From positions 6,320,043-6,384,042 of the forward strand of contig OZ252227.1 in NCBI GenBank assembly GCA_965249175.1: DNA of 64,000 nt, given 5' to 3'. The position numbers and the translations under genes were made by a program. Below are positions 4,313 to 51,034 of this stretch, piece after piece (the first letter of the stretch is position 1; the number at the start of each line of letters is the position of its first letter). The notes below the pieces were generated by a model. That model made no database searches and was not told the DNA's origin. It saw only the letters and a program-made list of their open reading frames with translations. Origin of the DNA: Vicinamibacterales bacterium (GTDB lineage Bacteria > Acidobacteriota > Vicinamibacteria > Vicinamibacterales > UBA8438).

Positions 4313-5609
4313 TTACTGACCTGCATCGGTACTGAGAAGGTCGAGAGGACTTCGCGCCGGCCTCCGCAGTTCTTTGACGACGTGTGTGTAGATCATCGTC
4401 GTCTCCACGTTGACGTGACCCAGGTAGTCCTGGATCTGCCGGATGTCGACACCGTTGAGCAGCAGGTGCGTTGCAAAACTGTGTCTCAACGTGTGGACGG
4501 AAACGGGCTTGTGGATGTGAGCCCTTCGGGCCGCCGCCTTGACGCCCTCTGGACGACCGAGTCATGGACGTGGTGGCGCCGCACAATGCCGGCCCGAGGG
4601 TCGGTTGCCAACGTCTTGCTTGGGAAGACCCAGAACCGCGCCAGCTCTCGGCCCGCGTTCGGATACCTACGTTCCAGGGCATCGGGCATCCAGACGCCGG
4701 CGAGTCCCGATCTGCGGTCGGCTCCGTAGACCGTCTCGGAACTCCGCAGTTGAGCCCGCAACTCCTCCCGGCCCACTTCCGCCAACAGCGTCGACCTGTC
4801 CTTGTTTCCCTTCCCACTGCGGACAAAGACCAAGCCCTGATCGAAGTCGAGGTCCTTCACGCGCAGTTGGCAACACTCAGAGACCCGCAATCCTCCTCCG
4901 TAGATCAGCGCGGCCATGAGCCAAGTCCTCCCGCGCAGGCCGCCCAGGAACGCCGCGGTCTCCGGAATGCTCAGGACGACCGGCAGCCGCGACCCGCGCT
5001 TTGCCCTCGCCGTCGAGGATAAGTCCTCCACCGCCACACCCAGCACCTCCCGGCGGAGGAACAGAATGGCGGACAGCGCCTGGTTTTGACTGCTGGCCGA
5101 CACCCGGCGCCGCACGGCCAGATGCGTCAGATAATCTCGTACGGCGACCGAGTCGACCGGCGGATGCGGCGCGTTCTGCCGCTCGGCCACATAGGCAAAA
5201 GAAACGCCGCACCCAGTCCGCATACGTGCGCTCGGTGCGGGAGGAGTAGTGCCTGGTCCTGATGCGCCGTTGCAGTTCTTCCAGCGCCGCCAGCGGATTC
5301 GTTCCGCCGTGCTCGTCCACGACGGCGCTGGCCGGCCGGCGATGCCAGTCTGTTCGCTTCAGGAAATTGACAAAGAACATCCGTAAAGCCTGCTCGGCCC
5401 TGGCGCACCTGCCACTCCTGGACGCGGCCTTTGCGCTCCAAGTCCTCACAGAACCGCCGAACCTGGTCCGCCAGGGGTTCGTCAGAAGCCTTCCTCATCA
5501 GGAATCGGCGCACCCAGCGCACGCAGTGCGGCGCCGCGTTCTCTCGGACCAGTCGCCCTCGGAGTAGGAACTCGCCGAACGGCTGGAGCGACGATTCGAG
5601 CTCACGCAT
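4313..5609 (-). pseudogene. intI: integron integrase IntI, inactivated by at least three frameshifts
   Basis: Four frame segments read MRELESS...EWQVRQ | AEQALRMFFVNFL...RTERTYADWVRRFF | FAYVAERQ...LRVSECCQLRVKDLD...[41 protein letters not shown] | [47 protein letters not shown]. The last segment is my own translation and is not in the ORF track. Shifts lie near 5400, 5200 and 4545. The catalytic R, HxxR and Y are present, as is the IntI-specific insertion. Confidence 0.85.
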
Positions 5610-6011: not shown

Positions 6012-6840
6012 ATGACACTCTCTAATGAGGTCTCGACGTTGGTCGATGATTTCGTCCTGCGAGACCGCAGGCTTGGAGACCACTCATCGACTACTGTCGA
6101 CGTGCTGCTCGCGGAGGGTGGTGAGAGTCGCTTGATCGCTCGATCTCGCACTCCGGCCGCCGAGCTACCGAGCCAGAAGCAGAGAGTCAAGATCCCGAAC
6201 TTCAAGTATATCCGTGACACGTCCATGACGATGGGCGACGACGCCGATATTCGGTCACGCGTCGTATGCGCGGTGGCTTCCGGGACGACAACTCTTGGCA
6301 TGCTGTCGCTGAGAAGCAAGCATGAAGTGTTGAGCCCGACGGACGTACGCCGCCTACACGTCTTGAGCGCCCTGGTTGCGTACGAAATCGTCTACCTCCA
6401 GGCGAGAGCCAGAGTACCGTCGCGTTTGTCGCTCGAACTGGGTGTTGTGCTGCGGGCGGCTCGAAAGGAGATGGGCCTGAGCCAAGAGGATCTCGCTGCC
6501 CTGGTCGGGACGAGTCGGATCTCGGTGTCGAGGTGGGAGACGGGAACGCAATTGCCCTCCCGTGGCCCGCTTCGGAACTGGGCGACCGCGCTAGGGCTGC
6601 TCGCCGGAGGGCGATCCACGATTGTCGCCGCGGTCGACGCGACTCCCGAGCTTCTGGAATTACTGCGGCGAGATCCCGGTCGGCTGTCGCAGCTTTCGGC
6701 GGAGCAATTCGAACAGGTCGTTGCAGAGCGGCTTGACCGAATGGGGTACGCGGTCCAGAGAACCGGGGCTGTGAACCAGAAGGATGGCGGCATCGACATC
6801 ATCGCGATCCCTCGAGCAGACACCGCGAGTGTTCTAATTG
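6012..6840 (+). pseudogene. GAF-like / XRE-HTH / Mrr-type restriction-endonuclease domain protein, 5' part, interrupted by ISL3
   Basis: HTH motif LRAARKEMGLSQEDLAALVGTSRISVSRWETG. Mrr_cat-like motif LSAEQFEQVVAERLDRMGYAVQRTG...DGGIDIIAIP. The ORF runs into the IS inverted repeat at 6841. Removing the IS and one TSD copy continues in frame as SVLIAVQVKHHRGSRKTGRATV (8298-~8345). Confidence 0.6.
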
Positions 6841-8289
6841 GGCTCTTCGTCGATTTGAGTACAGCGATCTGAGGTGATACCCGGCCGCCTGCGCGGGCCG
6901 CAATTGAGGTGGGCGGCCTGCTCGACGGCCTGGACGAAAGAACGCGATCCCACTTGCACCGGACCACCCGGTGTTGTTCTCTCTTGATGTGCAACCAAGA
7001 AGGGAGGACACGTGGGATCGCAACGGGATTGTACCTGGATCTTGGGCTTGTCGGGCTTCCGAGTGGTGCGCGTCGAACGGGAGGACGACGGGGTGGAGAG
7101 TCGCCTGCGGTTGCAGTTGGAGCGGCGCGGGATACGGCGCTATGTGTGCAACGGCTGTGGACGCCGCACCGGCCGCGTGCGCGCCGCGCGCGAGCGGACG
7201 TGGGACGATCTGCCCTGGGCACGGCATCCGGTCACGTTGGTCTACCGGCAACGACGCGTGATCTGTCGCCACTGCGGGGTGCGCACGGAGCGGATCGAAT
7301 TTGCCACCCCGAAGGCCCGGGTCACGCGCCGCTTGCGCCAGCAGATCGGCCTGGATTGCCAGTCGATGCCGACCAGCCACGCCGCCGTGCGGCACCGCGT
7401 CAGCTGGGGCAAAGCCCGGCGCGCCGAGACGGCCTTCTTGACCGAGTGGGATCGCACCCGCCGGAAACGGCGACCGCGGCACATCGGCCTCGATGAGGTG
7501 CAGCGCGGGAAGGGCCAGCGCTTCTGGACTGTCCTGTCGGATGTGGTGCGCGGCGAGGTCATGGGCTTGCGTCAGGATCGCACAACGACTACCGCCACGA
7601 CCTTGCTCACGGAGGATCTCGACCCGCATCAGCGGGGCGCGATTCACGCGGTGTGTACCGACATGCACCGGCCCTATCTCAATGCGGTCACGCAGGTGCT
7701 GCCGCAGGCCGACGTGGTGTTCGACAAATTCCATGTCCTCCAGCATGCGAGCGCCGCGCTCGACGAGGTCCGCCGCCAAGAGTTCTTCCGCGCCGGGGCC
7801 GTGATGCGTGCCCATGGGCGCGGGAAACGCTGGTTGCTGCTCCGGCGCTGGAAGACGGTCCGCGGCTCGAAGCGCCGGGAACTGCAGACGTTGTTTGCCG
7901 CGAATCGCCGGCTGTTCAAAGCCTGTCTCCTGCGCGAACAGCTCGACCGCCTGTGGACGTATCGGACGCCGATGGGCGTGGGGCACTTCCTCATCGGCTG
8001 GGTGACCGCGTTGCGCTGGCAACGGCTCCCCGAGATGGAGCGCCTCGGCGCGTTCCTCGTTCGTCATCTCGAGGGCATCGCTGCCTACTGCTTCCACCCT
8101 GTTCGCTTCGGCGTGGTCGAATCGATCAACACGACCATCAAGGCGGTCCTCCGCCGCGCACGCGGTATGCAGAATGAACAACTGCTCTTGCTCAAACTGA
8201 AGTGGGCCACGGCTCATCCGATTCGATCGTCTCGCGACCTGGCGCGCTTCTTGAGCCTTCAACCCTTGTACTCAAATCGGTGAAGAGCC
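6841..8289 (+). mobile_element. ISL3-family insertion sequence (1449 bp)
   Basis: 23-bp terminal inverted repeats GGCTCTTCGTCGATTTGAGTACA (6841-6863) and TGTACTCAAATCGGTGAAGAGCC (8267-8289), with 2 mismatches. Perfect 8-bp target duplication TCTAATTG at 6833-6840 and 8290-8297. Confidence 0.9.
7012..8283 (+). CDS. ISL3 family transposase
   Basis: 423-aa ORF inside the IS. N-terminal zinc finger CNGCGRRTGRV...CRHCG and an ISL3-type DDE region (GLDEVQRGKGQRFWTVLSDV, AVCTDMHRPYLNAV). Confidence 0.9.
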   Translation: MGSQRDCTWILGLSGFRVVRVEREDDGVESRLRLQLERRGIRRYVCNGCGRRTGRVRAARERTWDDLPWARHPVTLVYRQRRVICRHCGVRTERIEFATPKARVTRRLRQQIGLDCQSMPTSHAAVRHRVSWGKARRAETAFLTEWDRTRRKRRPRHIGLDEVQRGKGQRFWTVLSDVVRGEVMGLRQDRTTTTATTLLTEDLDPHQRGAIHAVCTDMHRPYLNAVTQVLPQADVVFDKFHVLQHASAALDEVRRQEFFRAGAVMRAHGRGKRWLLLRRWKTVRGSKRRELQTLFAANRRLFKACLLREQLDRLWTYRTPMGVGHFLIGWVTALRWQRLPEMERLGAFLVRHLEGIAAYCFHPVRFGVVESINTTIKAVLRRARGMQNEQLLLLKLKWATAHPIRSSRDLARFLSLQPLYSNR

Positions 8290-8672: not shown

Positions 8673-8774
8673 CGACGATCGCTCTCGACCGCAGAATGGC
8701 CCGGCAGGAGCGCGGCCAGACTGGCCAAACAGACGGGGTCTTGAGGTTATCTGACGCTCGGATCATGATCACAA

Positions 8775-8832
8775 GGCTAACCAAGCAATGCAGCGGACCG
8801 GCTGAGCCGGCCGCTGATTGCTGACGTTAGGC
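8775..8832 (+). other. integron attC site 1 (58 bp)
   Basis: GGCTAAC-caagcaatGCAGCGG-accggctgagccgg-CCGCTGattgctgac-GTTAGGC. Imperfect palindrome with unpaired bases; R' fits GTTRRRY. Confidence 0.8.
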
Positions 8833-8924
8833 CGACTGGATCGCAGCCAGTGGCAGCCGACTTGAACTAGAACGCCCACAGAAACCCGCGCACCAACCAA
8901 CGTGATGCAACCAGGACGCGAACC

Positions 8925-9722
8925 ATGAGTAACCCTTTTGTCCCAGGCGTCGGCGGGATCCTCAGCGCCGATATCGCCGTCCCAGAACACGATCGCGAAC
9001 TGAGCTTCTACTCACGTGTCCTGACCACGGGTGAGAATCCACTTTGGCGGGACGACCTGACGAACAACCGAGGAATGCCGATCATCGGCCTGGGCGCGCG
9101 CAGTGCTGAGTACGAAAAGCTACCGCTGCAATGGATGCCGCACATACAGGTCGCCGATGTCGCAACCAGTGTCGCGCGTGCGCTGGAGCTGGGCGGGGAT
9201 GAGCTTATGCATTCCAAAGACGACGGCGGAAAAAGTCAGTGGGCTGTTCTCCTCGATCCCAATGGGGCGGCGTTCGGGGTCATCCCAGTCGTCTCTGCCG
9301 AGTCCATTTCCCCGGATGAGGGCGGCGCATCGCGCGACGCCGCGGAGCGTGCGGGTTGCATTTCTTGGCTCAACCTGACGGTCTCTGACGCCCTGGCAAC
9401 CCGTGACTTCTATCGACAGGTCGTGGGCTGGTCGGTGCAGAACATCGAGATGGAGGACGCGAAAGAGGCCTACATCGACTACAACATGCGCGGTGATGAT
9501 GGGAACTCGGCGGCGAGAGTCTGTCATGCACGCGGCGCGAACCTGGGCCTGCCGCCGGTCTGGCTGATGTACCTCCCCGTTGGCGATCTCCCCGAAAGTC
9601 TTCGTCGTGTGCGAGAGGGCGGGGGTGAGATCATCAAAGCGACTCAAAAATCAGATGGGACATACGCATCTGCCGTTGTTCAGGACTCGGTGGGTGCGTG
9701 CCTGGCGTTGGTACCGGGATAA
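8925..9722 (+). CDS. VOC (glyoxalase/bleomycin-resistance fold) family protein, two tandem modules; integron cassette
   Basis: 265-aa ORF filling the interval between attC1 and attC2. Two repeats of a VOC-like module (…PHIQVADVATSVARALELGG…LLDPNGAAFGVI; …WLMYLPVGDLPESLRRVREGGG…VVQDSVGACLAL). Confidence 0.6.
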   Translation: MSNPFVPGVGGILSADIAVPEHDRELSFYSRVLTTGENPLWRDDLTNNRGMPIIGLGARSAEYEKLPLQWMPHIQVADVATSVARALELGGDELMHSKDDGGKSQWAVLLDPNGAAFGVIPVVSAESISPDEGGASRDAAERAGCISWLNLTVSDALATRDFYRQVVGWSVQNIEMEDAKEAYIDYNMRGDDGNSAARVCHARGANLGLPPVWLMYLPVGDLPESLRRVREGGGEIIKATQKSDGTYASAVVQDSVGACLALVPG

Positions 9723-9728
9723 GGAAGT

Positions 9729-9801
9729 GCCTAACCACGAATTGCAGCGGACGCCCGCACTGTTTCGCCCCAGCCGGCGCCGCTGAATACTGACGTTATG
9801 T
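9729..9801 (+). other. integron attC site 2 (73 bp)
   Basis: GCCTAAC-cacgaattGCAGCGG...CGCCGCTGaatactgac-GTTATGT. R'' fits RYYYAAC exactly. Begins 7 nt after the cassette stop. Confidence 0.8.
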
Positions 9802-9823
9802 CGACACGCCACAAGAGCCAGGG

Positions 9824-10844
9824 GTGACCATGTTCGAGGACACCTTGAGAGAGCTCGGGAGGTTGGATGGAGTAACTAAGTTCTCCATCGAGCTTGAGCT
9901 CGACGACAAAGGGTGCCTGGACCGATTGTGCCCATCAGCCGCATGTCGGGCACCGTTCAAAGTCAGGTTTGAGGACTGGCGAAATATCGTCCGTGATGAG
10001 GTCGTCTACTGCCCGCTCTGCCGACACGACGACCCGGCCTCAGACTGGAACACGCCTGAGCAGTCCGAGCAGATCAAGGGAGCCGCGCTCGCCCACGTTC
10101 AACGTAGACTGGGCCGGGCTCTGGGGAACGACTCTCGGCGATTCAACGCGAGACAGCCCCGCGGCGGTCTCATCAAGATGAGCATGTCGTACCGGCCTGG
10201 CCGCACCTCCGTGGCCGTTCCGGCGACGGCAACAGACGTGATGACGCAGGAGTTCGACTGCCCGGAGTGCCACTGCCGGTACTCGTCGGTCGGCGCAGCG
10301 TTCTTCTGCCCCTCCTGCGGTCACAACAGCGTTTTGGAAACATTCAAGAATTCCGTCGAGACCGTGCGAAAAACGATGGACGCGCTACCGGGTATCCGGG
10401 AAGCAATCGCCGAAGAAACAGGCGAGAATGTTGCTGAAGATTCGATCCGGCACATCACCGAGAACGGCCTGGTCAAGCTCGTCTCCTCGTTGCAGCGTTA
10501 TGCCGAGGCGCTGTTTTCACTGCCTGCCGAACGCAGCCCAATTCGAGGTTCGCAAGAACTTGTTCCAGAACCTGATGGAATCTGATGCGCTATGGCGTAG
10601 CGCAACCGGCACGGGATATTCGGAGATTCTCGGTGGTGAAGAGCTCAGCGTGCTCCAACGCTACTTTCAGCAGCGGCATCTTCTGTCTCACAAAGAAGGC
10701 ATAGTCGACCAGCTGTACATCGAGCGTTCTGACGATCGAACACTTGATGTAGGGCAACGGCTCCGTGTGTCGTCCGAGCATGTCCGGGAACTCGCGGCGA
10801 TCATTACGAAGCTGTCAACGCGAATGTCGCAACACGTGACATAA
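9824..10844 (+). pseudogene. double zinc-ribbon / HEPN-like (Rx4H) cassette protein, one frameshift near 10520
   Basis: ORFs 9824..10585 and 10428..10844 join as ...LQRYAEALFSLPAE | AQFEVRKNLFQNLMESDALW...YFQQRHLLSHKEG... The N-terminus has CPSAAC..CPLC and CPEC..CPSC. The stop TAA lies inside R'' of attC3. Confidence 0.55.
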
Positions 10845-10896
10845 CCACGCAATGCAGCGGATCGGCTGCGCCGACCGCTGATTGCTGACGTTATAC
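10839..10896 (+). other. integron attC site 3 (58 bp)
   Basis: ACATAAC-cacgcaatGCAGCGG-atcggctgcgccga-CCGCTGattgctgac-GTTATAC. Nearly identical arms to attC1. Confidence 0.8.
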
Positions 10897-10985
10897 GTGC
10901 ACTGCAATAAGTCGAACGAGTTGAAATCGCGCTCCGCAGAAGGGAGTGGACTTTCCGAGAGGATTGGCGTCCAACGTGCTGAACG

Positions 10986-11606: not shown

Positions 11607-12003
11607 TTAGGGTCGGAGGACGTAGTCACGTTCGTCGAGCCGCGCTAAGAGGACCTGACAGAAATAGATCGACCAGACGCCGTCGTCAACGTCCTCGAGT
11701 CCAATCGGGTGGTGCGTCAGGGCCTGGGAGACGAAGAGTAGCCGGTGCTTGAAGCGGATGGTACCCGCCGTGGTCACGCGCTTCACCAGGCAGTGGCCCG
11801 GATAGTCAATCGGGGGCAGCTCGCGGGGAAACGGTCGGGGCGACGGCTGATAGAGGGATCCGGGCGTGCGGCCCTGGAGGGCGTCATGCGGCCGCTCGTC
11901 ATTGAACTCGTCGCGGAAGGCATTGAAGGCTCGTGGCTGCGTCGCGAGCGTGGCCCGGGGCGGTCGAATGGCGCCGGCTTTGAGCGTCTTGTGCATCCGC
12001 ACG
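11607..12003 (-). pseudogene. IS481-like transposase, C-terminal fragment
   Basis: ...RMHKTLKAGAIRPPRATLATQPRAFNAFRDEFNDERPHDALQGRTPGSLY...GTIRFKHRLLFVSQAL... (part of ORF 11607..12110). Confidence 0.7.
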
Positions 12004-13440
12004 GAGATATAACCAGAAGTTGTGGATCGGCAGTCTGAAGAAGGCGGCGTATCCTTTCGCGTGAGCAACGCGAAAACTCCGGCTGGCAGGCCGGTGAAAG
12101 GAGCCGCCACCCATGCTGAAGGTACTCGACAACGATGGAGCAGACAACGAAGTTCCGCCGGAAGAGCGCGGTGCGCAGACGGTGGACGAGCTGGCCCGGG
12201 AGGGAGCCCGGCGGATGTTGATGACGGCCCTGGCGGTGGAGGTCGGGCAGTACATCGAGGCCCACGGCGAGGAGCGGGACGCGCGGGGACGCCGGCTGGT
12301 CGTTCGGAATGGTCGGGCCCAGGCGCGGAAGGTGACGTGCGGGGCAGGTACGCTCGAGGTGCATGCTCCTCGGGTGAACGACAAAAGGGTCAACGGCGCG
12401 GGCCAGCGGGAGCGGTTCACGAGTCGGATCTTGCCCCCCTACATGCGTCGCTCGCCCAAGGTGGCGGAGGTGCTGCCGATCCTCTATCTGCGCGGTCTGT
12501 CGACGGGCGATTTCCGCGAAGCGCTGCCGGTGCTATTGGGGGATGACGCGGCCGGCCTCAGCGCGACCAACATCGCGCGCCTCACGGCGGTGTGGGAAGA
12601 GGACTACCGGCGGTTCCGCCAGCGGGACCTGGCCGATCGTGACTACGTGTACGTGTGGGTCGACGGCATCCATTTCAACATCCGGCTCGAGGACGATCGG
12701 CTCTGTACGCTGGTGATCATCGGCGTACGGCCCGATGGGACCAAGAAGCTCGTGGCCCTGGAGGACGGCTACCGCGAGAGCACCGACAGCTGGGCGACGG
12801 TGCTGCGGGACCTCCAGCGGCGCGGCATGCGGGCCCCGGTGGGGGCGGTCGGCGACGGCGCCCTGGGTTTCTGGGCGGCCGTGCGCGACGTGTGGCCGGA
12901 CACGCGAGAGCTCCGCGACTGGTGTCACAAGATGGGCAACGTGCTCGACAAATTGCCAAAGCGATTACAGCCGAAAGCGAAGCGCGCGCTCCGCGAGATC
13001 ATGTACGCCGAGACGCGGGCACACGCCGAGGAGGCCATGGACGTCTTCATCGCCGAGTACGAGGCCAAGTACCCGAAGGCGGCGGCGTGCCTGGACGCAG
13101 ACCGCGACCGCCTCCTCACGCACTTTGCCCTGCCAGCTGAGCATTGGCAGCACGTGCGCACGAGCAACGTCATCGAGTCGCCATTCGCCACGGTCCGACT
13201 CCGGCAGCGCGTGACCAAAGGCGCGGGCTCGCGCACCAAGGGCCTGTTGATGGCCTACAAGCTGCTCGAGATGGCACAGCAGCGCTGGCGTCGGCTCAAT
13301 GGCGCGCATCTGCTGCCACTCGTCCGCGCCGGCGTGACGTTCATTGACGGGGTACAGCAGGAGCGAAACAACGAGGGAGATCGGAAGGTGGCCGCCTGAT
13401 CACGCTGATGACCGATCCACAACATTTGACAATATCTCAG
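12004..13440 (+). mobile_element. IS256-family insertion sequence, copy A
   Basis: Terminal inverted repeats GAGATATAACCAGAAGTTGTGGATCGG (12004-) and CCGATCCACAACATTTGACAATATCTC (-13438). A 7-nt direct repeat CCGCACG flanks it at 11997-12003 and 13441-13447. The exact right end is uncertain by 2 nt. Confidence 0.85.
12113..13399 (+). CDS. IS256 family (mutator-type) transposase
   Basis: 428 aa. YVWVDGIHFNIRLEDDRLCTLVIIGVRPDGTKKLVAL...VGDGALGFWAAVRDVWP...WCHKMGNVLDKLPK. Confidence 0.9.
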   Translation: MLKVLDNDGADNEVPPEERGAQTVDELAREGARRMLMTALAVEVGQYIEAHGEERDARGRRLVVRNGRAQARKVTCGAGTLEVHAPRVNDKRVNGAGQRERFTSRILPPYMRRSPKVAEVLPILYLRGLSTGDFREALPVLLGDDAAGLSATNIARLTAVWEEDYRRFRQRDLADRDYVYVWVDGIHFNIRLEDDRLCTLVIIGVRPDGTKKLVALEDGYRESTDSWATVLRDLQRRGMRAPVGAVGDGALGFWAAVRDVWPDTRELRDWCHKMGNVLDKLPKRLQPKAKRALREIMYAETRAHAEEAMDVFIAEYEAKYPKAAACLDADRDRLLTHFALPAEHWQHVRTSNVIESPFATVRLRQRVTKGAGSRTKGLLMAYKLLEMAQQRWRRLNGAHLLPLVRAGVTFIDGVQQERNNEGDRKVAA

Positions 13441-13945: not shown

Positions 13946-13979
13946 GGCTGACGCCGGCCGCTGATTGGTAACGTTAGCG
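13946..13979 (+). other. partial attC (loop, L' and R' half only)
   Basis: ggctgacgccggCCGCTGattggtaacGTTAGCG aligns with the right half of attC1. The R''/L'' half is absent next to the IS481-like remnant. Confidence 0.65.
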
Positions 13980-14583: not shown

Positions 14584-14652
14584 CGCTAACCACGGGCTGC
14601 AGCGGACGCCGCCCCGGTGCTCAGCCGGCGCCGCTGAACCCTGACGATATCG
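14584..14652 (+). other. integron attC site 5, with a mutated R' core (GAT instead of GTT)
   Basis: CGCTAAC-cacgggctGCAGCGG-acgccgccccggtgctcagccggcg-CCGCTGaaccctgac-GATATCG. Confidence 0.7.
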
Positions 14653-22920: not shown

Positions 22921-23026
22921 GGGCCCGACTGTAGTGCAGAACCGAGTATCTTGTCCCTTGACGGTCTGGGCAGGGTAAGATTTGGAGGTATTTTTCTGAG
23001 GTTTTGGCTCAGTGGAGGGTCGACGC

Positions 23027-25477
23027 ATGCGCACGGGTCGGCATGTACTGGTTGTCGGGCTCTTGGCAACCACCGCGCTTTTTGGGACCGCTCCCGCGTC
23101 CGCGGGCCAGCAGACGACGGTCGATCCGGCGTCCGCACAGGCGCTGCTCAGCCGGTACTGCATCACCTGTCATAGCGAGCGCCTCAAGACGGGCGGGCTG
23201 TCTCTCGAAGCGGTTGATATCGCCAGCGCCGGCGACCATGCCGCGGTCTTCGAGAATGTCGTCCGCAAGGTGCGTGGCGGCGTCATGCCGCCCGTTGGTC
23301 GACCACGCCCCGATGATTCGACGCTGGACGGGTTCGCGACGTGGCTCGAGACCGAGCTCGACGGAGCCTGGGCCTTGGCCCGAGACCCCGGTCGCACGCA
23401 GACCTTCCATCGACTCAACCGAGCGGAGTATCGGAACGCCATCCGCGATCTGCTGGCGCTCGACCTCGAGATCGTCGACTTCCTCCCCGCCGACGACGCC
23501 AGCTACGGCTTCGACAATATCGCCGGCATTCTGAGGATGTCGCAGTCGCTGATGGAGCGGTATCTCTCGGCGGCTCGGACGATCAGCCGGATGGCCGTGG
23601 GGAATCCACCGCCTGCCGTCGACTCGGCCACGTACAGGGTCGCCCAGGATATGCAGCAGCAGCATCAGCGCGAGGAGCTGCCGTTCGGCACGCGTGGCGG
23701 GCTGCTGGTCGAGCATTACTTTCCGCAGGACGCCGAGTATGTCTTCAGCGTGGAAGTTTCGGGAGACAGAAACCTCACGGAGCCCCATCATCTGGAGCTG
23801 ACCGTGGACGGCGAGCAAGTACGACTGTTCACGCTGCCGCAACCAGAGCCAGAGCCGGACGCAGAGCCACAGCCGGCGGCGCGCGTCCAAACGAACACAA
23901 CCGCTGTCGTCTACGCCGCCGACGGGAAGTACGCGGTGCGTGTTTCGGTCGGCGCGGGTCCTCGCGATGTTGGCGCGACGTTTTACAAGAAGCCGACACC
24001 GCTTGTCGAGCAGGTCAGGGAAGTGTTCGAGAACCCACGCATCTCGGGGAATCCCGGCCTGGGTGGGCGGATGCCGACCGTCACCAGCGTGTCGATCGCG
24101 GGGCCCTACGACGCGGTGGGTGCGGGTGAGACGCCGAGCCGCCAGCAGGTGTTCGTCTGCCGTCCGTCGACCGAGGCCGACGAAACGCCGTGCGCGAGGA
24201 CGATCGTGGCGAGGTTGGCGCGGCGCGCCTACCGTGGATACGTCCTGGACGAGGATGTCGACGTATTGCTCGACTTCTACGAGGCAGGTCGGGCGGATGG
24301 CGGCAGCTTCGAAGACGGAATCGAGCTGGCGCTCCGGCGGCTGCTCGTCAGTCCCGAATTCCTCTACCGCATCGAGGCTGACGCGCGTGATGCCGACGCG
24401 TACGCCGCCGCCTCCGGTGTGTACCGGCTGAGCGATCTGGCGCTGGCGTCTCGACTGTCGTTCTTTCTCTGGAGCAGCATCCCCGACGAGGCGCTGCTCG
24501 CCGTTGCGGAGGAGGGACGCTTGACGGATCCCGACGAGCTGGATCGTCAGGTGACACGCATGCTGGCCGACCCGCGGTCGGTGGCCCTGACAGACAACTT
24601 CGCCGGTCAGTGGTTGCAGCTGCGGAACCTGGAAACGGTCGTCCGGCCTGGCGACCCCTACTCGCTCGTGTTCGACGAATCGCTCCGCCAGGGCATGCTG
24701 CGTGAGACCGAGCTCTTCATCGACAGCATCATCCGCGACGACCGGAGCCTCGTCGAGATCCTCACGGCCGACTACACGTATCTGAACGAGAGGCTGGCCC
24801 GGCACTACGACATCCCGCATGTGAGGGGCAGCCAGTTTCGACGCGTGGCCCTACCCGCCGAGAGCCCGCGCCGCGGCCTCCTGGGACATGGCAGCGTGCT
24901 GACGATCACGTCCCACGCGATTCGGACCTCGCCGGTCAACCGTGGGAAATGGATTCTGGACAACGTCCTGGGGACACCGCCGCCCGACCCGCCGCCGAAC
25001 ATCCCGGCGCTCGATGACAAGCGGACGCAGCAAAAGGTCGCCACGTTGCGCGAGCGGATGTCCGAGCACCGGGCGAATCCCGTGTGTGCCAGCTGCCACA
25101 ACGTGATCGACCCGGCGGGGTTCGCGCTCGAGAACTTCGATGCGGTCGGCCGGTGGCGCACCGTCGACGAATCGTTCAATCCGATCGACGCATCCGGCTC
25201 GCTCCCTGACGGCACGCCGTTCGATGGGGTCGTCGACCTCACCGGTGCGCTCGTGCAGCGGCCCGAGCGGTTCGTGACCACTGTGACCGAGAAGTTGCTG
25301 ATCTACGCCCTGGGCCGAGGCGTCGAGTACTACGATATGCCAGCCCTGCGGGGGATCGTGAGAGAGGCCGCCGCGACCAATTACTCGTCGCACGCGATCG
25401 TGCGCGGTATTGTGAGGAGTTATCCGTTTTTGAATCGGAGAAGCGCAGCCGACGACCTCGGGTCCGCCGCTCCGTGA
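23027..25477 (+). CDS. DUF1592/DUF1588/DUF1585-family protein with an N-terminal c-type heme motif (copy 1)
   Basis: Signal peptide, then LLSRYCITCHSERLKTGGLSLE (CxxCH). Family hallmarks FHRLNRAEYRNAIRDLL, SRLSFFLWSSIPD, DNFAGQWLQLRNL, ADYTYLNERLARHY, SPVNRGKWILDNVLGTPPPDPPPN, CASCHNVIDPAGFALENFD. Confidence 0.8.
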   Translation: MRTGRHVLVVGLLATTALFGTAPASAGQQTTVDPASAQALLSRYCITCHSERLKTGGLSLEAVDIASAGDHAAVFENVVRKVRGGVMPPVGRPRPDDSTLDGFATWLETELDGAWALARDPGRTQTFHRLNRAEYRNAIRDLLALDLEIVDFLPADDASYGFDNIAGILRMSQSLMERYLSAARTISRMAVGNPPPAVDSATYRVAQDMQQQHQREELPFGTRGGLLVEHYFPQDAEYVFSVEVSGDRNLTEPHHLELTVDGEQVRLFTLPQPEPEPDAEPQPAARVQTNTTAVVYAADGKYAVRVSVGAGPRDVGATFYKKPTPLVEQVREVFENPRISGNPGLGGRMPTVTSVSIAGPYDAVGAGETPSRQQVFVCRPSTEADETPCARTIVARLARRAYRGYVLDEDVDVLLDFYEAGRADGGSFEDGIELALRRLLVSPEFLYRIEADARDADAYAAASGVYRLSDLALASRLSFFLWSSIPDEALLAVAEEGRLTDPDELDRQVTRMLADPRSVALTDNFAGQWLQLRNLETVVRPGDPYSLVFDESLRQGMLRETELFIDSIIRDDRSLVEILTADYTYLNERLARHYDIPHVRGSQFRRVALPAESPRRGLLGHGSVLTITSHAIRTSPVNRGKWILDNVLGTPPPDPPPNIPALDDKRTQQKVATLRERMSEHRANPVCASCHNVIDPAGFALENFDAVGRWRTVDESFNPIDASGSLPDGTPFDGVVDLTGALVQRPERFVTTVTEKLLIYALGRGVEYYDMPALRGIVREAAATNYSSHAIVRGIVRSYPFLNRRSAADDLGSAAP

Positions 25478-25500
25478 CCCTGCCTGCGAGAGAGGACACC

Positions 25501-26844
25501 ATGATCGTTACGAAGAAATATCTGCCGAGACGCACCATCCTGCGTGGGCTCGGGGCCACCGTGGCGTTGCCGTTTCTCGATGCCATGGCGCCGGCGCTCA
25601 CCGCCGCCGCGCAGACCGCCGCGAATCCCGTCCCGCGGATCGGGTTCTTCTATGTTCCGAACGGCATGTTCCTGCCGAGCTTTCATCCGAAGGGTGACGG
25701 GGGAGCCAACTTCGAGCTGTCACCGACCCTGACGCCGCTCGCGCCGTTCCGCGACCAATTGACGGTCCTGAGCGGTCTGAGCAACAGCGGTGTCGTGAGC
25801 CCGAATGAAGGCGGTGGGGTCCACACGCGGGCGCACGGCGGTTGGCTCAGCGGAGTGCTGCCGCGCCGCACCGAGGGTGCCGACCTCGAGGCGGGCAAGA
25901 CCCTCGATCAGTATGCGGCCGACAAGCTCGGCGCTGACACCTCGCTGCGGTCACTCGAGCTGACAATTGATTCCAGCTTCCAGGTCGGCAACTGTGAGAA
26001 CGGCTACAGCTGTGCGTATCTGAACTCGAGCTCCTGGCGAACCGCGACGACCCCGCTGCCGCACGAGCGCGACCCGCGGGTCGTGTTTCAGCGGCTGTTC
26101 GGCGATGGCGGCAGCATCGAGGCCCGCGTGGCGCAGATGCGGACCGACCGCAGCATCCTCGATTCGGTCTCGGGTAGCATCAGCCGGCTCGAGCGGCGTC
26201 TCGGTCTCCGAGACCGCACGACGGTGGAGGAGTACCTCGATTCCGTCCGGGAGATCGAGCGGCGAATCCAGCGCGCAGAGCGCAACAGCGCGACGACGCC
26301 CCTGCCCGACCTGGAGCAGCCCGACGGTGTGCCGGACGACTACGACGAGCATGTCAAGATCCTCCACGATCTCCTCGTGCTGGCATTCCAAGCGGACGTG
26401 ACGCGTGTGAGCTGCATGCAGATGGCGCGCGAGCTGAGTGGGCGTGCGTACCCTCAAATCGGAGTTCCCGAGGGACACCACACGGTCTCGCATCACCAGT
26501 TGGACCAGCACAACACGGCGCAATACACCAAGATCAACACGTACCACATGTCGCTGTTCGCGCGGTTCCTCGAGAAGATGCGGTCGACGCCAGACGGCGA
26601 CGGCAATCTGCTGGACCATTCCATCTTCCTCTGGGGCGCGGGGATGGGCGATGGCGACAAGCACACGCCCTACGACCTGCCGGTGTCGCTCGTCGGCGGC
26701 GGGTGCGGGACGCTCGAGGGCAATCGGCACCTGAAGTACGCCATGCATACGCCATTCATGAACATGGGGCTGAGCGTGCTCGACAAGGTGGGCGTTCACG
26801 TCGACGCGCTCTCCGACAGCACCGGGCGGCTGACCGATCTGTGA
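25501..26844 (+). CDS. DUF1552 domain protein with a Tat-type signal (copy 1)
   Basis: ATG at 25501 after the GAGAGAGGA RBS. MIVTKKYLPRRTILRGLGATVALPFLDAM...; ...HHTVSHHQ...LWGAGMGDGDKH. Confidence 0.8.
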   Translation: MIVTKKYLPRRTILRGLGATVALPFLDAMAPALTAAAQTAANPVPRIGFFYVPNGMFLPSFHPKGDGGANFELSPTLTPLAPFRDQLTVLSGLSNSGVVSPNEGGGVHTRAHGGWLSGVLPRRTEGADLEAGKTLDQYAADKLGADTSLRSLELTIDSSFQVGNCENGYSCAYLNSSSWRTATTPLPHERDPRVVFQRLFGDGGSIEARVAQMRTDRSILDSVSGSISRLERRLGLRDRTTVEEYLDSVREIERRIQRAERNSATTPLPDLEQPDGVPDDYDEHVKILHDLLVLAFQADVTRVSCMQMARELSGRAYPQIGVPEGHHTVSHHQLDQHNTAQYTKINTYHMSLFARFLEKMRSTPDGDGNLLDHSIFLWGAGMGDGDKHTPYDLPVSLVGGGCGTLEGNRHLKYAMHTPFMNMGLSVLDKVGVHVDALSDSTGRLTDL

Positions 26845-26872
26845 CCATATCCCTCATGGGAACAGCACGAGG

Positions 26873-28510
26873 ATGAGGAGCACCATGGTGACATCTCGAA
26901 GTGCCCGGTGGATGGTCGCGTTCCTGGTGGTGTCGGTCTGCGTGCCGTCCTTTGCGACGGCCAAGACGGCCGACGTTCCGCTGCTGGAGGCGGTCAGGGC
27001 AGTCGATCTGGAGGCGGTTCGCGCCCTGCTCGATCAGGGTGTGGACGTGAATACGACCGCCGTCGATGGCGCGACCCCGCTCCATTGGGCAGCGTATCGG
27101 GACGAGCCGGCGCTGGTCGCGCTGTTGCTCGACGCTGGCGCGGATGTGACCGTCGCCAACCGGTACGGCGTCCTGCCACTGTCGTTGGCGAGCCTGCACG
27201 GGAACGCTGAGGTCATCGAGCTGCTGCTGCGGGCCGGTGCTGATCCGAACACCACATTGCCGGAGGGGGAGACGGCGGTGATGACGGCCGCGCGGACAGG
27301 CAACCCCGACGCCATCCGTGTCCTGGTGAGCCACGGGGCCGACGTCAACGCTCGTGACGAAGTGCATGGCCAGAGCGCCCTCATGTGGGCAGCCGCGGAG
27401 GGACACGCCGAGGCGATCCATGTGCTCGCCGAGGTCGGGGCCGACATCAACGCGCGCACCGCGCGGGACAACGGCCCCCCCCCTCGTCGGGGATTGTTCG
27501 CGAGTGCGTCGCCGACCGGCTTCACGCCGTTCTTGTTCGCCGTCCGTGCGGGGCATCTCGACGCGGCGCGTCTTCTGCTCGAGGCGGGTGCCGACGTCAA
27601 CGACACGCTGTCCGATGGACAGAGTGCGCTCGTCGTTGCCGCGGCGAACGCCAACTGGGCATTGGCGGACTACCTGCTCGACCGGGGGGCCGATCCGAAT
27701 CTGGCCGGCGCGGGCTGGAACGCGCTTCACCAGACGGTGCGAACCCGCCGCATGAACTGCTGTCAGGGCACGCCCGGGCCGATTCCGGCGGGGACCGTGG
27801 AGAGTCTCGACGTCATGCGGAAGCTGGTCGCGAAGGGTGTCGATGTCGACGCCCGCATGACGCGAAACGGGATGAAGGATGGGCAACGGAGTCGGCTCAA
27901 TCGCCTCGGCGCGACCGCCTTTTTCCTGGCCGCCAAAGTCACCGACGTCGAGGCGATGAGGTATCTGGTCGAGGTGGGCGCCGACTCCAGCATCCCGAGC
28001 GCCGAGAATTCGACACCGCTGATGGTGGCGGCCGGGCTCGACATCTGGAATCCTGGGGAGGATGGTGGAACGTTCTCCGGTCAGGAAGCAGAGGTGCTCG
28101 AAGCAGTGACGATGTGCGTCGAGTTGGGGAACGACGTCAATGCGGTGAACGACCTCATGGAAACGGCTCTCCACGGCGCCGCGTTCAGGGGGGTCAACAT
28201 CGTCGTCGATTATCTCGTCGCGCAGGGCGCGAAGCTCGATGCACGGGAAACACACGGGTGGATTCCGTGGGCCATCGCCGACGGGTTCAGCTACTCGGAT
28301 TTCTACAAGGCCCAGAAGCACACGGCCGAGCTTCTGGCCACGTACATGAGGGCGCAGGGCCTGTCGACAGAGGGTGAAGTCATACCGGGGTCGGTGTGTT
28401 TCGACTGTTTACAGACCCGGTCGGACCAGGCGCGTGCCGCCCGCGATCGCGACGAGCGGATGGAAGCCGAGTTCGCGCTCCTGTACGCGCGGGAGAAAGA
28501 CCAGCAGTAG
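26873..28510 (+). CDS. secreted ankyrin-repeat protein (copy 1)
   Basis: Signal peptide. Many ANK repeats (DGATPLHWAAYRDEPALVALLLDAGADV, GETAVMTAARTGNPDAIRVLVSHGADVN, ...). Confidence 0.8.
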   Translation: MRSTMVTSRSARWMVAFLVVSVCVPSFATAKTADVPLLEAVRAVDLEAVRALLDQGVDVNTTAVDGATPLHWAAYRDEPALVALLLDAGADVTVANRYGVLPLSLASLHGNAEVIELLLRAGADPNTTLPEGETAVMTAARTGNPDAIRVLVSHGADVNARDEVHGQSALMWAAAEGHAEAIHVLAEVGADINARTARDNGPPPRRGLFASASPTGFTPFLFAVRAGHLDAARLLLEAGADVNDTLSDGQSALVVAAANANWALADYLLDRGADPNLAGAGWNALHQTVRTRRMNCCQGTPGPIPAGTVESLDVMRKLVAKGVDVDARMTRNGMKDGQRSRLNRLGATAFFLAAKVTDVEAMRYLVEVGADSSIPSAENSTPLMVAAGLDIWNPGEDGGTFSGQEAEVLEAVTMCVELGNDVNAVNDLMETALHGAAFRGVNIVVDYLVAQGAKLDARETHGWIPWAIADGFSYSDFYKAQKHTAELLATYMRAQGLSTEGEVIPGSVCFDCLQTRSDQARAARDRDERMEAEFALLYAREKDQQ

Positions 28511-49664: not shown

Positions 49665-51034
49665 TCATCACGAAGCGGGCGCTGCCGCGGCGCACGGTGC
49701 TACGCGGCATCGGGGCGACGGTGGCGCTGCCGCTTCTTGACGGGATGGTGCCGGCGCTGACTGCCCTGGCCCAAACCGCGGCCCGCCCGATCAAGCGCTT
49801 CGGTGTCGTCTATGTGCCGAACGGCGTCGTGATCGATCAGTGGACGCCGGCGACCGATGGCGCCGGTTTCGAGCTCTCGCCGATCCTCGCGCCGCTGGCG
49901 CCGTTCCGCGACCGCCTGATCGTGTTGACCGGGCTGACTCAGAACGTCAACGGTCTGGCCGCCCAGAGTGGCGCCGTTCATGGCCGCTGCGCGACGAAGT
50001 TTCTCACCGGGGCGATCCCACGACCGTTCGGGCAAGAGGGCGACGACTTCCTGGCCGGCGTCTCCCTCGATCAACTCATCGCAAAGGAACTGGGTCGGGA
50101 GACGCAGCTCGGGTCGCTGGAGCTGTCGCTGGAGTCGGGCGACAAGGGCGCCGGCACGTGCGACGGCGGCTATAGCTGCACCTACAGTCACACCATCACG
50201 TGGCGGGGTCCGAGGACGCCGCTTCCGATGGAGCACAACCCGCGCGTCGTCTTCGAGCGGATGTTCGGAGACGGCGGCAGTACCGACGCGGGCGCGCGAC
50301 AGGCGCGGATTGAGCATGACCGGAGCCTCCTCGACTCGGTGACGGGCAAAGTCGCGGACCTCACGCGCGCGCTTGGCCCGAGCGACGCGAGCAAGCTGCG
50401 CGAGTATCTGGAGGCGGTGCGCGATATCGAGCGGCGGATCCAGCGGGCCGAGGAGCAGGTGGACCGCGAGCTTCCCGCCTTCGACCAGCCCGCGGGTGTG
50501 CCGGCGACGTTCGCCGAGCATGCACGGTTGATGTTCGATTTGCAGCTCCTCGCCTACCAGAGCGATCTGACCCGTGTCATCACCTTCATGGTGGGTCGTG
50601 AGTTCAGCAGCCGCACGTATCCCGAGATCGGCGCTCCCGGCGGGCACCACCCCTTGTCGCACGAGCACAGCGCCGCGAGCCAGGAGCAGCTCGCGCGGAT
50701 CAACGTCCATCACGCGACGCAGTTCGCGTACTACCTCGATCGCCTCGCGGCAACGCCCGACGGCGACGGCTCGCTGCTCGACCACGTGATCCTCTACTAC
50801 GGAGCGGGCATGGCCGAGGGCGATCACCAGCCGTGGAATCTGCCAATAGTCCTGGCGGGGGGAGGCGCTGGGGCGCTTCGCGGCGGGCGACACATTCGAT
50901 ATGCAGCCGATCCCGGCGCCACCCGATCCGTTGAGGGCGGCACGCCGTTGGCCAACCTGCATGTGACCGTGCTGGAGAAGCTCGGCATGCGCATCGACGC
51001 CGTCCACGACAGTACGGGCCGCTTGGATCTTTAG
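49661..51034 (+). CDS. DUF1552 domain protein with a Tat-type signal (copy 2)
   Basis: ATG at 49661 overlaps the upstream stop (ATGA). MIITKRALPRRTVLRGIGATVALPLLDGM... Colinear with 25501..26844. Confidence 0.8.
   Translation: MIITKRALPRRTVLRGIGATVALPLLDGMVPALTALAQTAARPIKRFGVVYVPNGVVIDQWTPATDGAGFELSPILAPLAPFRDRLIVLTGLTQNVNGLAAQSGAVHGRCATKFLTGAIPRPFGQEGDDFLAGVSLDQLIAKELGRETQLGSLELSLESGDKGAGTCDGGYSCTYSHTITWRGPRTPLPMEHNPRVVFERMFGDGGSTDAGARQARIEHDRSLLDSVTGKVADLTRALGPSDASKLREYLEAVRDIERRIQRAEEQVDRELPAFDQPAGVPATFAEHARLMFDLQLLAYQSDLTRVITFMVGREFSSRTYPEIGAPGGHHPLSHEHSAASQEQLARINVHHATQFAYYLDRLAATPDGDGSLLDHVILYYGAGMAEGDHQPWNLPIVLAGGGAGALRGGRHIRYAADPGATRSVEGGTPLANLHVTVLEKLGMRIDAVHDSTGRLDL

What the first reader, a model, noticed from the sequence alone, without database searches (positions are those of the whole stretch)
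9797..10896. Cassette encoding a double zinc-ribbon protein with a HEPN-like Rx4H C-terminal domain (frameshifted)
The cassette bounded by attC2 and attC3 holds one gene in two frames (9824..10585 and 10428..10844), joining near 10520. The N-terminal half has two four-cysteine zinc ribbons (CPSAAC...CPLC; CPEC...CPSC). The C-terminal half carries ...RKNLFQNLMESDALW...LQRYFQQRHLLSHKEGIVDQ. This contains an R-x4-H motif in a helical context, the signature of HEPN RNases found in abortive-infection and TA systems. The stop codon sits inside R'' of the attC, as in genuine cassettes. I do not recognise this domain combination as a named family. It is a candidate single-gene defence or toxin cassette, currently inactivated unless the frameshift is an assembly error.
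Basis: partly seen in the sequence, partly recalled or inferred. Interest (0 to 1): 0.6.

Follow-up and report, generated by a model that had tools for sequence, protein, structure and literature searches.

The report
Broken zinc-ribbon HEPN-like defence cassette
An integron gene cassette carries a frameshifted copy of a widespread, unnamed gene family that joins two zinc ribbons to a probable HEPN-type RNA-cutting domain; it is most likely a dead copy of a one-gene anti-phage suicide switch, a variant of a known kind.

Summary
Cassette 9796-10890 lies between two attC sites and holds one gene in two frames. One extra T in the run TTTT (10514-10517) separates them. Read through, the 337-339-aa product aligns end to end (60-67% identity) with more than 600 intact proteins of about 336 aa.

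All eight zinc-ribbon cysteines and the motif Q-x-R-H-x3-H (Rx4H) are invariant in 79 diverse members. The C-terminal 170 residues fold confidently (pLDDT 95.5) into a helical bundle with canonical HEPN topology, and its best PDB matches are almost all HepT/HEPN toxins. Those matches are weak (E 0.3-1, TM 0.34-0.50), and no HEPN Pfam model matches significantly. In particular the domain is not DUF4145, the domain of RAZR.

The N-terminal double zinc ribbon matches PADLOC candidate PDC-M14A. Stand-alone versions of that module sit in operons with an AbiJ-type HEPN protein. Relatives lie in type I and type ISP restriction-modification operons, on conjugative plasmids and in a few integron cassettes, with no conserved partner gene.

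Best reading: a pseudogenised single-protein abortive-infection RNase, a new variant of the RAZR-like zinc-ribbon/HEPN kind.

The parts
9729..9801 (+). attC preceding the cassette (R'' GCCTAAC 9729-9735; R' GTTATGT 9795-9801)
   Evidence: Conserved 20-mers of the attC repeat family. Bottom-strand hairpin, the weakest of the set at z = -1.0.
9796..10890 (+). The gene cassette (G|TT to G|TT), 1095 bp, holding a single gene
   Evidence: Bounded by the R' boxes at 9795 and 10890. The only long ORFs inside are the two halves of one gene.
9830..10516 (+). 5' part of the gene (frame A): N-terminal double zinc-ribbon module and the first half of the C-terminal domain, ending at Phe codon TTT 10514-10516
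   Evidence: Aligns with residues 1-229 of the family. PADLOC PDC-M14A matches residues 18-168 at E 2.2e-11.
9929..10021 (+). Zinc ribbon 1 (C-x4-C ... C-x2-C)
   Evidence: All four Cys are invariant in 79 members. Beta-hairpins in the AF2 model.
10259..10318 (+). Zinc ribbon 2 (C-x2-C-x-C ... C-P-x-C-G)
   Evidence: The Cys are invariant or nearly so.
10514..10517 (+). TTTT run containing the one extra base that shifts the frame (+1)
   Evidence: The family consensus reads F-H across this point without a gap. Frame A matches before it and frame B after it.
10518..10844 (+). 3' part of the gene (frame B): second half of the HEPN-like domain, with stop TAA at 10842-10844
   Evidence: Aligns with residues 230-336 of the family.
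10674..10691 (+). R-H-L-L-S-H, the Rx4H motif (CGG CAT CTT CTG TCT CAC)
   Evidence: R, the following H and the distal H are invariant in 79 members. The motif lies at the end of core helix 3 in the model.
10839..10896 (+). attC of this cassette (R'' ACATAAC 10839-10845, overlapping the stop; R' GTTATAC 10890-10896)
   Evidence: Bottom-strand hairpin with an extrahelical base, -18.7 kcal/mol, z = -4.2.
4313..5609 (-). Frameshifted integron integrase gene (context)
Evidence: TIGR02249 positions 28-248 match one frame (E 1.1e-67) and positions 2-31 match another. Pfam Phage_integrase also matches.

Best explanation
The cassette carries a frameshift-inactivated member of a large, unannotated family of stand-alone proteins of about 336 aa.

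Shown:
- The protein has an N-terminal module of about 165 residues with two Cys4 zinc ribbons joined by a long helix.
- It has a C-terminal all-helical domain of about 170 residues whose invariant residues include Q-x-R-H-x3-H.

Inferred:
- The C-terminal domain is a divergent HEPN-fold, metal-independent RNase. It would act as a dimer with a composite Rx4H active site.
- The zinc-ribbon module is the sensor or regulatory part. It would hold the RNase inactive until a phage-derived cue is bound, after which RNA cleavage stops translation and aborts the infection.
- This is by analogy with RAZR/PD-T7-4 and with HEPN genes embedded in restriction-modification loci.

In this genome, probably a planctomycete, the copy sits in a decaying chromosomal integron with a broken intI and IS-riddled cassettes. 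One extra T splits the HEPN-like domain between its second core helix and the Rx4H helix. The locus therefore most likely makes no active protein.
For: Family and frameshift:
- The joined product matches more than 600 intact proteins at 60-67% identity over 97-99% of its length.
- The junction aligns without a gap.
- This is the only copy in the 6.64-Mb genome.

Conservation:
- All eight Cys, and E211, E226, F245, Q246, W255, Q280, R282, H283, H287, Y296 and D302 (numbering of the intact 336-aa homologue P0004), are invariant in 79 members at 36-64% identity from more than 10 phyla.
- RHxxxH persists in still more distant relatives of the same architecture.

Fold:
- The C-domain model has pLDDT 95.5 and pTM 0.90.
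- Its topology is H1, H2 (with invariant Glu), an insert, H3 ending in RHxxxH, a loop, then H4. This is how PMC3710099 describes canonical HEPN, including a polar N/D/H residue after the R.
- 17 of the 18 best Foldseek PDB hits are HepT/HEPN toxins, with probability up to 0.82.
- hhalign places FQQRHLLaH on the RNxxAH motif of RiboL-PSP-HEPN at P = 0.011.

Context:
- Four loci read hsdR-hsdM-hsdS followed by this gene, with overlapping start. Three follow a type ISP enzyme. About 13 of 77 loci have restriction-modification genes within 4 kb.
- Plasmid copies lie next to PLD-like and P-loop NTPase genes.
- No conserved partner gene was found.

Module logic:
- The N-terminal module matches PADLOC PDC-M14A at E 1e-9 to 1e-16.
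- Stand-alone PDC-M14A proteins overlap the end of an AbiJ/Abi_C HEPN gene in three genomes.
- RAZR shows experimentally that a zinc finger plus a divergent HEPN domain is a phage-activated abortive-infection RNase (PMC13017515).

Decay:
- intI is frameshifted, and ISL3 and IS256 elements sit in the array.
- Ten large genes elsewhere in the window give full-length Pfam matches, so the assembly is not generally indel-ridden.
Against: - No fold match is statistically significant: E is at least 0.3 and TM is 0.34-0.50.
- No HEPN Pfam model reaches threshold. PF18735 reaches E 0.006-0.05 in only 2-4 members.
- hhalign probabilities are low: 3-4%.
- The upstream acidic residues are not in the usual Ex3[KR] context.
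- No member of the family has been tested, so both RNase activity and anti-phage function are inferred.
The frameshift could therefore be a homopolymer error in what looks like a long-read, single-contig assembly.
- Only about 2 of 80 representative loci, besides this window, show an attC directly after the gene in my crude scan. The integron link is therefore occasional, not typical.
Confidence: 0.6

Rival explanations
1. The gene is intact in the organism. The extra T would be a homopolymer error of the assembly, so the cassette encodes a functional 337-aa protein.
For: The shift is a single base in a homopolymer. The genome is one 6.64-Mb contig, which suggests long reads. Another long-read MAG copy (L055) is also split. 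Reads could not be checked.
Against: The run is only four bases long. Ten large genes elsewhere in the window are full length, and CheckM-type completeness is 98.3%. The same integron has a multiply frameshifted intI and several IS insertions, which points to real local decay.
Confidence: 0.22
2. The C-terminal domain is not an RNase. It would be a helical domain with another role, such as nucleic-acid or protein binding or a different hydrolytic chemistry, and the Rx4H match would be convergent.
For: No HEPN profile or fold match is significant. Helical bundles match one another easily. The domain has many further invariant polar residues (N243, Q246, W255, D293, Y296, D302) that are not part of the HEPN signature.
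Against: R, the polar residue after it, and H are invariant and lie exactly at the end of helix 3. The top structural hits are specifically HEPN toxins rather than generic bundles. The restriction-modification-embedded context and the pairing of the zinc-ribbon module with a bona fide AbiJ HEPN protein both fit an RNase effector.
Confidence: 0.15
3. It is a selfish toxin or addiction-type module, or a stress-dormancy RNase, that stabilises integron arrays and plasmids rather than an anti-phage sensor.
For: Integron arrays and this very array carry toxin-antitoxin cassettes (earlier notes e1-3214555 and e1-3214551, not re-tested here). PMC3710099 proposes dormancy roles for integron HEPN cassettes. 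Copies occur on conjugative plasmids.
Against: No antitoxin-like partner is conserved next to the gene in 77 loci. The restriction-modification-embedded arrangement is the hallmark of defence add-ons. The fused zinc-ribbon module looks like a built-in regulator, as in RAZR, which is non-toxic without its phage trigger.
Confidence: 0.12
4. The frameshift is programmed or leaky. tRNA-Phe would slip +1 on UUU_U, yielding a little full-length protein as a way to dose a toxic product.
For: On the sequence alone, UUU at 10514-10516 can re-pair with UUU at 10515-10517, after which the correct CAC follows.
Against: More than 600 homologues are single ORFs. There is no stimulatory stop or rare codon and no upstream SD-like element. 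The other split copy (L055) is shifted at a different site and in the other direction.
Confidence: 0.03

Closest known systems
RAZR / PD-T7-4 (ring-activated zinc-finger RNase, E. coli; Zhang et al., Nature 2026, PMC13017515)
   Same: A single protein with an N-terminal Cys4 zinc-ribbon sensor and a C-terminal divergent HEPN-type domain with essential R and H. It needs no partner gene, occurs in many phyla, and works by abortive infection through RNA cleavage.
   Different: RAZR is about 220 aa with one zinc finger of about 65 aa and a DUF4145 HEPN domain (R146...H154, Rx7H). This family is about 336 aa with two zinc ribbons in a 165-aa module and an Rx4H domain. That domain gives no DUF4145 hit and only 3% hhalign probability. 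It shows no sequence match to RAZR-type proteins beyond the ribbon. The trigger and the oligomeric state are unknown.
PADLOC candidate system PDC-M14 (component A)
   Same: The N-terminal double zinc-ribbon module matches the PDC-M14A profile over its full length, at E 1e-9 to 1e-16.
   Different: In the three stand-alone examples found here, the zinc-ribbon protein (about 181-186 aa) is a separate gene overlapping an AbiJ/Abi_C HEPN gene. In this family the module is fused to a different HEPN-like domain and has no partner. PDC-M14 is itself only a candidate, and no paper mentioning it was found.
HepT toxins of MNT-HEPN (DUF86) toxin-antitoxin systems (PDB 5YEP, 7BXO, 6M6U, 7AE6)
   Same: They are the best structural matches of the C-terminal domain, and they carry an Rx4H motif on the equivalent helix.
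   Different: The matches are weak (TM 0.34-0.50). HepT is about 130 aa, is neutralised by an MNT antitoxin through AMPylation, and has no zinc ribbon. This domain has an insert of about 40 residues and extra helices.
HEPN genes embedded in restriction-modification loci (PrrC/RloC, ApeA, AbiU2, DUF4145; PMC3710099) and HEC-08 (bioRxiv 10.1101/2024.01.29.577857)
   Same: The gene sits at the end of, or inside, type I or type ISP restriction-modification operons in a subset of members. HEC-08 also combines HEPN with zinc-finger-like domains, and its Rx4-6H histidine is needed for defence.
   Different: PrrC and RloC carry ABC-ATPase domains. HEC-08 has the opposite domain order, with an N-terminal DUF3644 HEPN domain. 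No sequence relationship was detected.
Integron-cassette HEPN family (PDB 3JRT; PMC3710099)
   Same: A HEPN-type protein carried as a single-gene integron cassette.
   Different: It is a small gammaproteobacterial family without zinc ribbons, and it did not appear among the fold matches.

Membership tests
HEPN superfamily | Conserved Rx4-6H motif, with a polar residue (N/D/H) directly after the R | tested here: met
   R282-H283-x3-H287 is invariant in 79 members and kept in more distant relatives. The definition comes from PMC3710099.
HEPN superfamily | [quoted passage not shown] | tested here: met
   In the AF2 C-domain model (pLDDT 95.5) the helices are 2-32, 35-66, an insert at 67-104, 105-123 (ending in R118, H119, H123) and 151-168. 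The description comes from PMC3710099.
HEPN superfamily | Second conserved acidic residue in helix 2, typically Ex3[KR] | tested here: inconclusive
   E211 and E226 are invariant in the long second helix, but the spacing is E-x4-K rather than Ex3[KR].
HEPN superfamily | Significant structural similarity to solved HEPN domains | tested here: inconclusive
   17 of the 18 top Foldseek PDB hits are HEPN toxins, but at E 0.3-1, probability at most 0.82 and TM 0.34-0.50.
HEPN superfamily | Profile match to a curated HEPN family | tested here: inconclusive
   PF18735 reaches E 0.006-0.05 in 2-4 members only. hhalign aligns the motif at P = 0.011 with 4% probability.
HEPN superfamily | Metal-independent RNase activity dependent on R and H | not testable with these tools
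   This needs biochemistry on an intact homologue.
RAZR / PD-T7-4 (DUF4145 zinc-finger RNases) | C-terminal DUF4145 (PF13643) domain | tested here: not met
   No PF13643 hit at E up to 1-10 in 68 + 73 members. hhalign against 21 DUF4145 domains gives 3% probability, and the motifs are not aligned. No PADLOC PD-T7-4 hit.
RAZR / PD-T7-4 (DUF4145 zinc-finger RNases) | A single N-terminal Cys4 zinc finger of about 65 aa, in a protein of about 200-230 aa | tested here: not met
   This family has two ribbons in a module of about 165 aa and a total length of about 336 aa.
RAZR / PD-T7-4 (DUF4145 zinc-finger RNases) | Activation by assembly around phage ring proteins (portal, Erf-like) | not testable with these tools
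   Experimental property (PMC13017515).
PADLOC PDC-M14 | Component A (double zinc-ribbon protein) profile match | tested here: met
   E 2.2e-11 for the window ORF and 1e-9 to 1e-16 for homologues, covering positions 1-150 of 152.
PADLOC PDC-M14 | Multi-gene organisation with a separate partner gene | tested here: not met
   There is no conserved neighbour in 77 loci, and the cassette holds one gene. Stand-alone A proteins do pair with an AbiJ-like gene.
Integron gene cassette | A 3' attC with R''/R' boxes, an imperfect hairpin with extrahelical bases, and membership of an array repeat family | tested here: met
Integron gene cassette | Integron integrase adjacent to the array, with cassettes co-oriented | tested here: met
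   TIGR02249 matches at E 1.1e-67 on the minus strand at 4489-5223, split over frames. The attC sites are all on the + strand.

The most novel reading that the evidence does not exclude
The double zinc-ribbon module (PDC-M14A type) may be a portable trigger-sensing unit for HEPN RNases. It would work either in cis (this family of about 336 aa, with at least 1,600 clusters at 50% identity carrying the C-domain) or in trans (the two-gene AbiJ-HEPN plus zinc-ribbon form). On this reading the family is a separate, so far undescribed lineage of single-protein immune sensors. It would recognise a different phage cue, and perhaps use a different assembly geometry, from RAZR.
Probability: 0.3. Interest if true: 0.6.

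Novelty: new variant of a known kind. Interest (0 to 1): 0.42.

Why it matters
If the reading is right, a large family is a further lineage of one-protein, zinc-ribbon-gated HEPN RNases. It comprises hundreds to more than a thousand sequence clusters and occurs in many phyla, on conjugative plasmids, in restriction-modification operons and in integron cassettes. Today it is annotated only as 'hypothetical protein'.

Two points follow:
- It adds to the evidence that integron cassettes bank defence genes.
- The cis (fused) and trans (two-gene, PDC-M14-like) arrangements of the same zinc-ribbon module with different HEPN domains offer a natural experiment on how such RNases are kept silent and then switched on.

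The copy in this window is probably dead. Its value is as a pointer to the family, not as a working system.

Tried and rejected
- **Pfam and NCBIfam** on both ORFs and on 68 + 73 homologues returned only sub-threshold zinc-ribbon noise and a faint PF18735 signal.
- **PDB sequence search** with the family profile found nothing meaningful.
- **Whole-protein Foldseek** found nothing significant, because the two-domain model dilutes the signal. Folding the C-domain alone helped.
- **hhalign against DUF4145** (the RAZR domain) rejected membership.
- **First two attC scanners.** The ungapped-arm version found nothing, not even the window's own sites. The exact 6-mer-stem version recovered three window sites but no site next to any homologue. 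Both were too strict and were replaced by a constrained-fold scan with a per-locus null. That scan is crude and can miss attC sites with non-canonical boxes.
- **Conserved neighbour or antitoxin.** All-against-all clustering of flanking ORFs found none.
- **Shared or programmed frameshift site.** The other split copy (L055) differs in site and direction.
- **Long (about 500-558 aa) relatives.** Pfam finds nothing in the extra region.
- **Literature on PDC-M14.** No paper was found.

Full report
**1. Observation**

The region holds two overlapping + strand ORFs, 9824-10585 (253 aa) and 10428-10844 (138 aa). I joined them by dropping one T of the run TTTT (10514-10517) and searched with the product. 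More than 600 proteins came back (only the 8,000 best candidates were scored). Most are 336 aa, with 60-67% identity over 97-99% of the query.

In the alignment, frame A follows the family consensus up to ...QRYAEALF. Frame B follows it from HCLPNAAQFEVRKNLFQ. The consensus reads YAEACFHKLPN with no gap. The lesion is therefore a +1 insertion in a T run (TTT|T|CAC). The consensus N-terminus MFDD shows that the real start is ATG 9830, not GTG 9824.

The genome is one 6.64-Mb contig, and this split gene is its only copy.

**2. Cassette context**

Two 20-mers from the ends of the flanking palindromes recur 4 and 5 times on the + strand (8778-8830, 9732-9799, 10842-10894, a half site near 13958-13977, and 14587-14650). 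Chance would give 0.04 and 0.01.

The bottom strands fold into attC-like hairpins with bulged bases. The z-scores are -4.2 for 10836-10899 and -5.7 for 8772-8835, and weaker for the two sites with larger loops. The stop TAA (10842-10844) lies inside R'' ACATAAC.

Upstream on the minus strand, an integron integrase (TIGR02249) matches positions 28-248 in one frame at E 1.1e-67 and positions 2-31 in another. It is therefore frameshifted. ISL3 and IS256 (Mutator-family) transposases interrupt the array.

Ten large genes at 23-55 kb give full-length Pfam matches. They include planctomycete-type PSD/PSCyt and DUF1552 families. The host is thus probably a planctomycete, and the assembly is not generally full of indels.

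I rate a real pseudogene at about 0.75 and an assembly error at about 0.22.

**3. The family**

A scan of one genome per species found 118 relatives and kept 80 loci. They come from Planctomycetota, Chloroflexota, Pseudomonadota, Acidobacteriota, Verrucomicrobiota, Armatimonadota, Nitrospirota, Actinomycetota, Bacteroidota and others.

In 79 distinct members (36-64% identity to the reference) the invariant residues are:
- all eight zinc-ribbon cysteines;
- in the C-terminal domain, E211, F221, E226, F245, Q246, W255, Q280, R282, H283, H287, Y296 and D302 (numbered on P0004, the intact 336-aa homologue used as reference and modelled in section 4).

More divergent relatives with the same architecture (287-346 aa) still carry RHxxxH.

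A profile of the C-terminal domain finds 1,600 cluster representatives at E up to 1e-3, 623 at 1e-10 and 212 at 1e-30, out of 1.84 billion.

No Pfam or NCBIfam model covers the C-terminal domain. RefSeq plasmid copies are all annotated 'hypothetical protein'.

**4. Is the C-terminal domain HEPN?**

The full-length AF2 model (pLDDT 81.5) gave no useful fold match. The C-terminal 172 residues were folded with 73 sequences and gave pLDDT 95.5 and pTM 0.90.

The model's topology is:
- helices 2-32 and 35-66, the second carrying the invariant Glu residues;
- an insert at 67-104;
- helix 105-123, which ends in R118-H119-x3-H123;
- a loop and a short helix;
- helix 151-168.

Anantharaman et al. (PMC3710099) describe canonical HEPN the same way. 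They give a four-helix core, a frequent insert between helices 2 and 3, an Rx4-6H motif at the end of helix 3 with a polar N/D/H after the R, and an acidic residue in helix 2.

Foldseek against the PDB puts HepT/HEPN toxins in 17 of the first 18 places (5YEP, 7BXO, 6M6U, 4NQF, 8YUF, 7AE6, 8XDJ). The statistics are weak, however: E 0.3-1, probability at most 0.82, TM 0.34-0.50.

Profile evidence is faint. PF18735 (RiboL-PSP-HEPN) reaches E 0.006-0.05 in a few members. hhalign against 18 RiboL-PSP-HEPN proteins aligns only the motif, FQQRHLLaH on lvxxRNxiAH, at P = 0.011.

Against DUF4145, the HEPN family of RAZR, hhalign gives 3% and misaligns the motifs. The domain is therefore not DUF4145.

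Overall I put HEPN fold at about 0.8. The sequence family is new to the curated libraries.

**5. Context and module logic**

No neighbour gene is conserved across 77 loci, so this is a stand-alone gene. Subsets have telling contexts:
- In L044, L047, L049 and L051 the gene follows hsdS of a type I restriction-modification operon with overlapping start. In L047 and L049 hsdR, hsdM and hsdS are all present upstream.
- In L034, L036 and L054 it follows a type ISP enzyme by 12-16 nt.
- About 13 of 77 loci have restriction-modification genes within 4 kb.
- Some copies lie next to an IrrE/ImmA-type peptidase or a DUF2188 gene.
- Plasmid copies lie next to PLD-like or P-loop NTPase genes and transposases.

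My fold-based attC scan found an attC directly after the gene in only two of 80 other loci, Neorhodopirellula (L002) and a Pirellulales MAG (L030). Integron carriage is therefore occasional.

The family is absent from 50,697 phage records and rare in IMG/VR, with three contigs.

The N-terminal module matches PADLOC's candidate PDC-M14A over the whole profile. In three genomes, stand-alone PDC-M14A proteins (181-186 aa where the full ORF is called) lie directly after a 264-267-aa AbiJ/Abi_C HEPN protein, overlapping it by 14 nt in L129 and L144. That protein scores Pfam PF14355 at 33.4 bits (cut-off 24) and PADLOC AbiJ at E 4.9e-10. The same zinc-ribbon module is thus linked to HEPN RNases both in trans and, in this family, in cis.

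**6. Mechanism (inferred)**

The characterised RAZR/PD-T7-4 has a zinc finger plus a divergent HEPN domain. It is non-toxic alone and is activated by phage portal or Erf-like rings to cleave RNA and abort infection (PMC13017515). By analogy I propose two things:
- The double zinc-ribbon module senses a phage-derived cue and releases a dimeric HEPN RNase.
- In restriction-modification-embedded copies, the protein acts as a second line of defence.

In this window the extra T cuts the domain between helix 2 and the Rx4H helix, so the locus should be inactive. A low level of +1 slippage on UUU_U is conceivable but unsupported.

**7. Comparison and verdict**

- It works like RAZR and other restriction-modification-linked HEPN abortive-infection proteins.
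- It is not a member of the DUF4145/RAZR family (tested, not met).
- It is not a PDC-M14 system in the strict sense, because it has no separate partner gene.
- Membership of the HEPN superfamily is supported by motif and topology, but profile and fold scores are inconclusive.

I class it as a new variant of a known kind. The locus itself is a probable pseudogene of moderate interest.

Several earlier notes of this scan describe other zinc-ribbon/HEPN cassettes and also name RAZR as the closest known system. I had already reached RAZR through the literature search. I treat those notes as parallel leads, not as support.

Noticed in passing
L129:519-1854; L144:1471-2812 (-); L145:387-1905: A two-gene operon. 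A 264-267-aa AbiJ/Abi_C HEPN protein (..GGLRNxLGDxHGKG..) is followed by a stand-alone double zinc-ribbon protein that matches PADLOC PDC-M14A at E 2.3e-26; the two genes overlap in L129 and L144. This is probably the real PDC-M14 system, and no paper on it was found.
   Followed up: partly
L055:5001-5990 (Dehalococcoidia MAG) and L021:5001-5990 (Actinomycetota MAG): Two other damaged copies of the family. L055 is frameshifted about 4 codons downstream of the window's site and in the opposite direction. L021 has an in-frame stop at codon 10.
   Followed up: partly
P0134, P0175, P0187, P0241, P0249 (493-558 aa): A subgroup of the family carries an extra C-terminal region of about 170-220 aa with no Pfam match. 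P0122 (449 aa) joins half a biotin carboxylase to the HEPN-like domain and is probably a chimeric gene call.
   Followed up: partly
BFVD A0A8S5NVI2, A0A8S5LJP3, A0A8S5NC87: Uncharacterised proteins from phage metagenomes share the fold of the C-terminal domain (Foldseek E 3e-4, 0.03 and 0.15; probability 0.94-1.0). This is a better match than any solved structure gives.
   Followed up: no
window 8925-9722 (+): The preceding cassette encodes a two-domain glyoxalase / bleomycin-resistance-like protein (Glyoxalase_6 plus Glyoxalase), apparently intact.
   Followed up: no
window 6012-8283: An XRE-HTH / Mrr_cat fusion gene (6012-6872) abuts an ISL3 transposase gene (7012-8283). An IS256-type (Mutator-family) transposase at 12113-13399 sits beside an rve fragment at 11607-12110 (-).
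   Followed up: no
window 23012-28510 and 51034-52971: Planctomycete-type PSD1-5/PSCyt and DUF1552 proteins point to a Planctomycetota (PVC) host. There are also two large ankyrin-repeat proteins, one of them fused to a cytochrome c domain.
   Followed up: no
L046:4116-6280, L052, L062, L069: In some proteobacterial, Latescibacterota and Verrucomicrobiota copies the gene is preceded by an IrrE/ImmA-type M78 peptidase gene and followed, with a 4-nt overlap, by a DUF2188 gene. This may be a lineage-specific regulatory pair.
   Followed up: no
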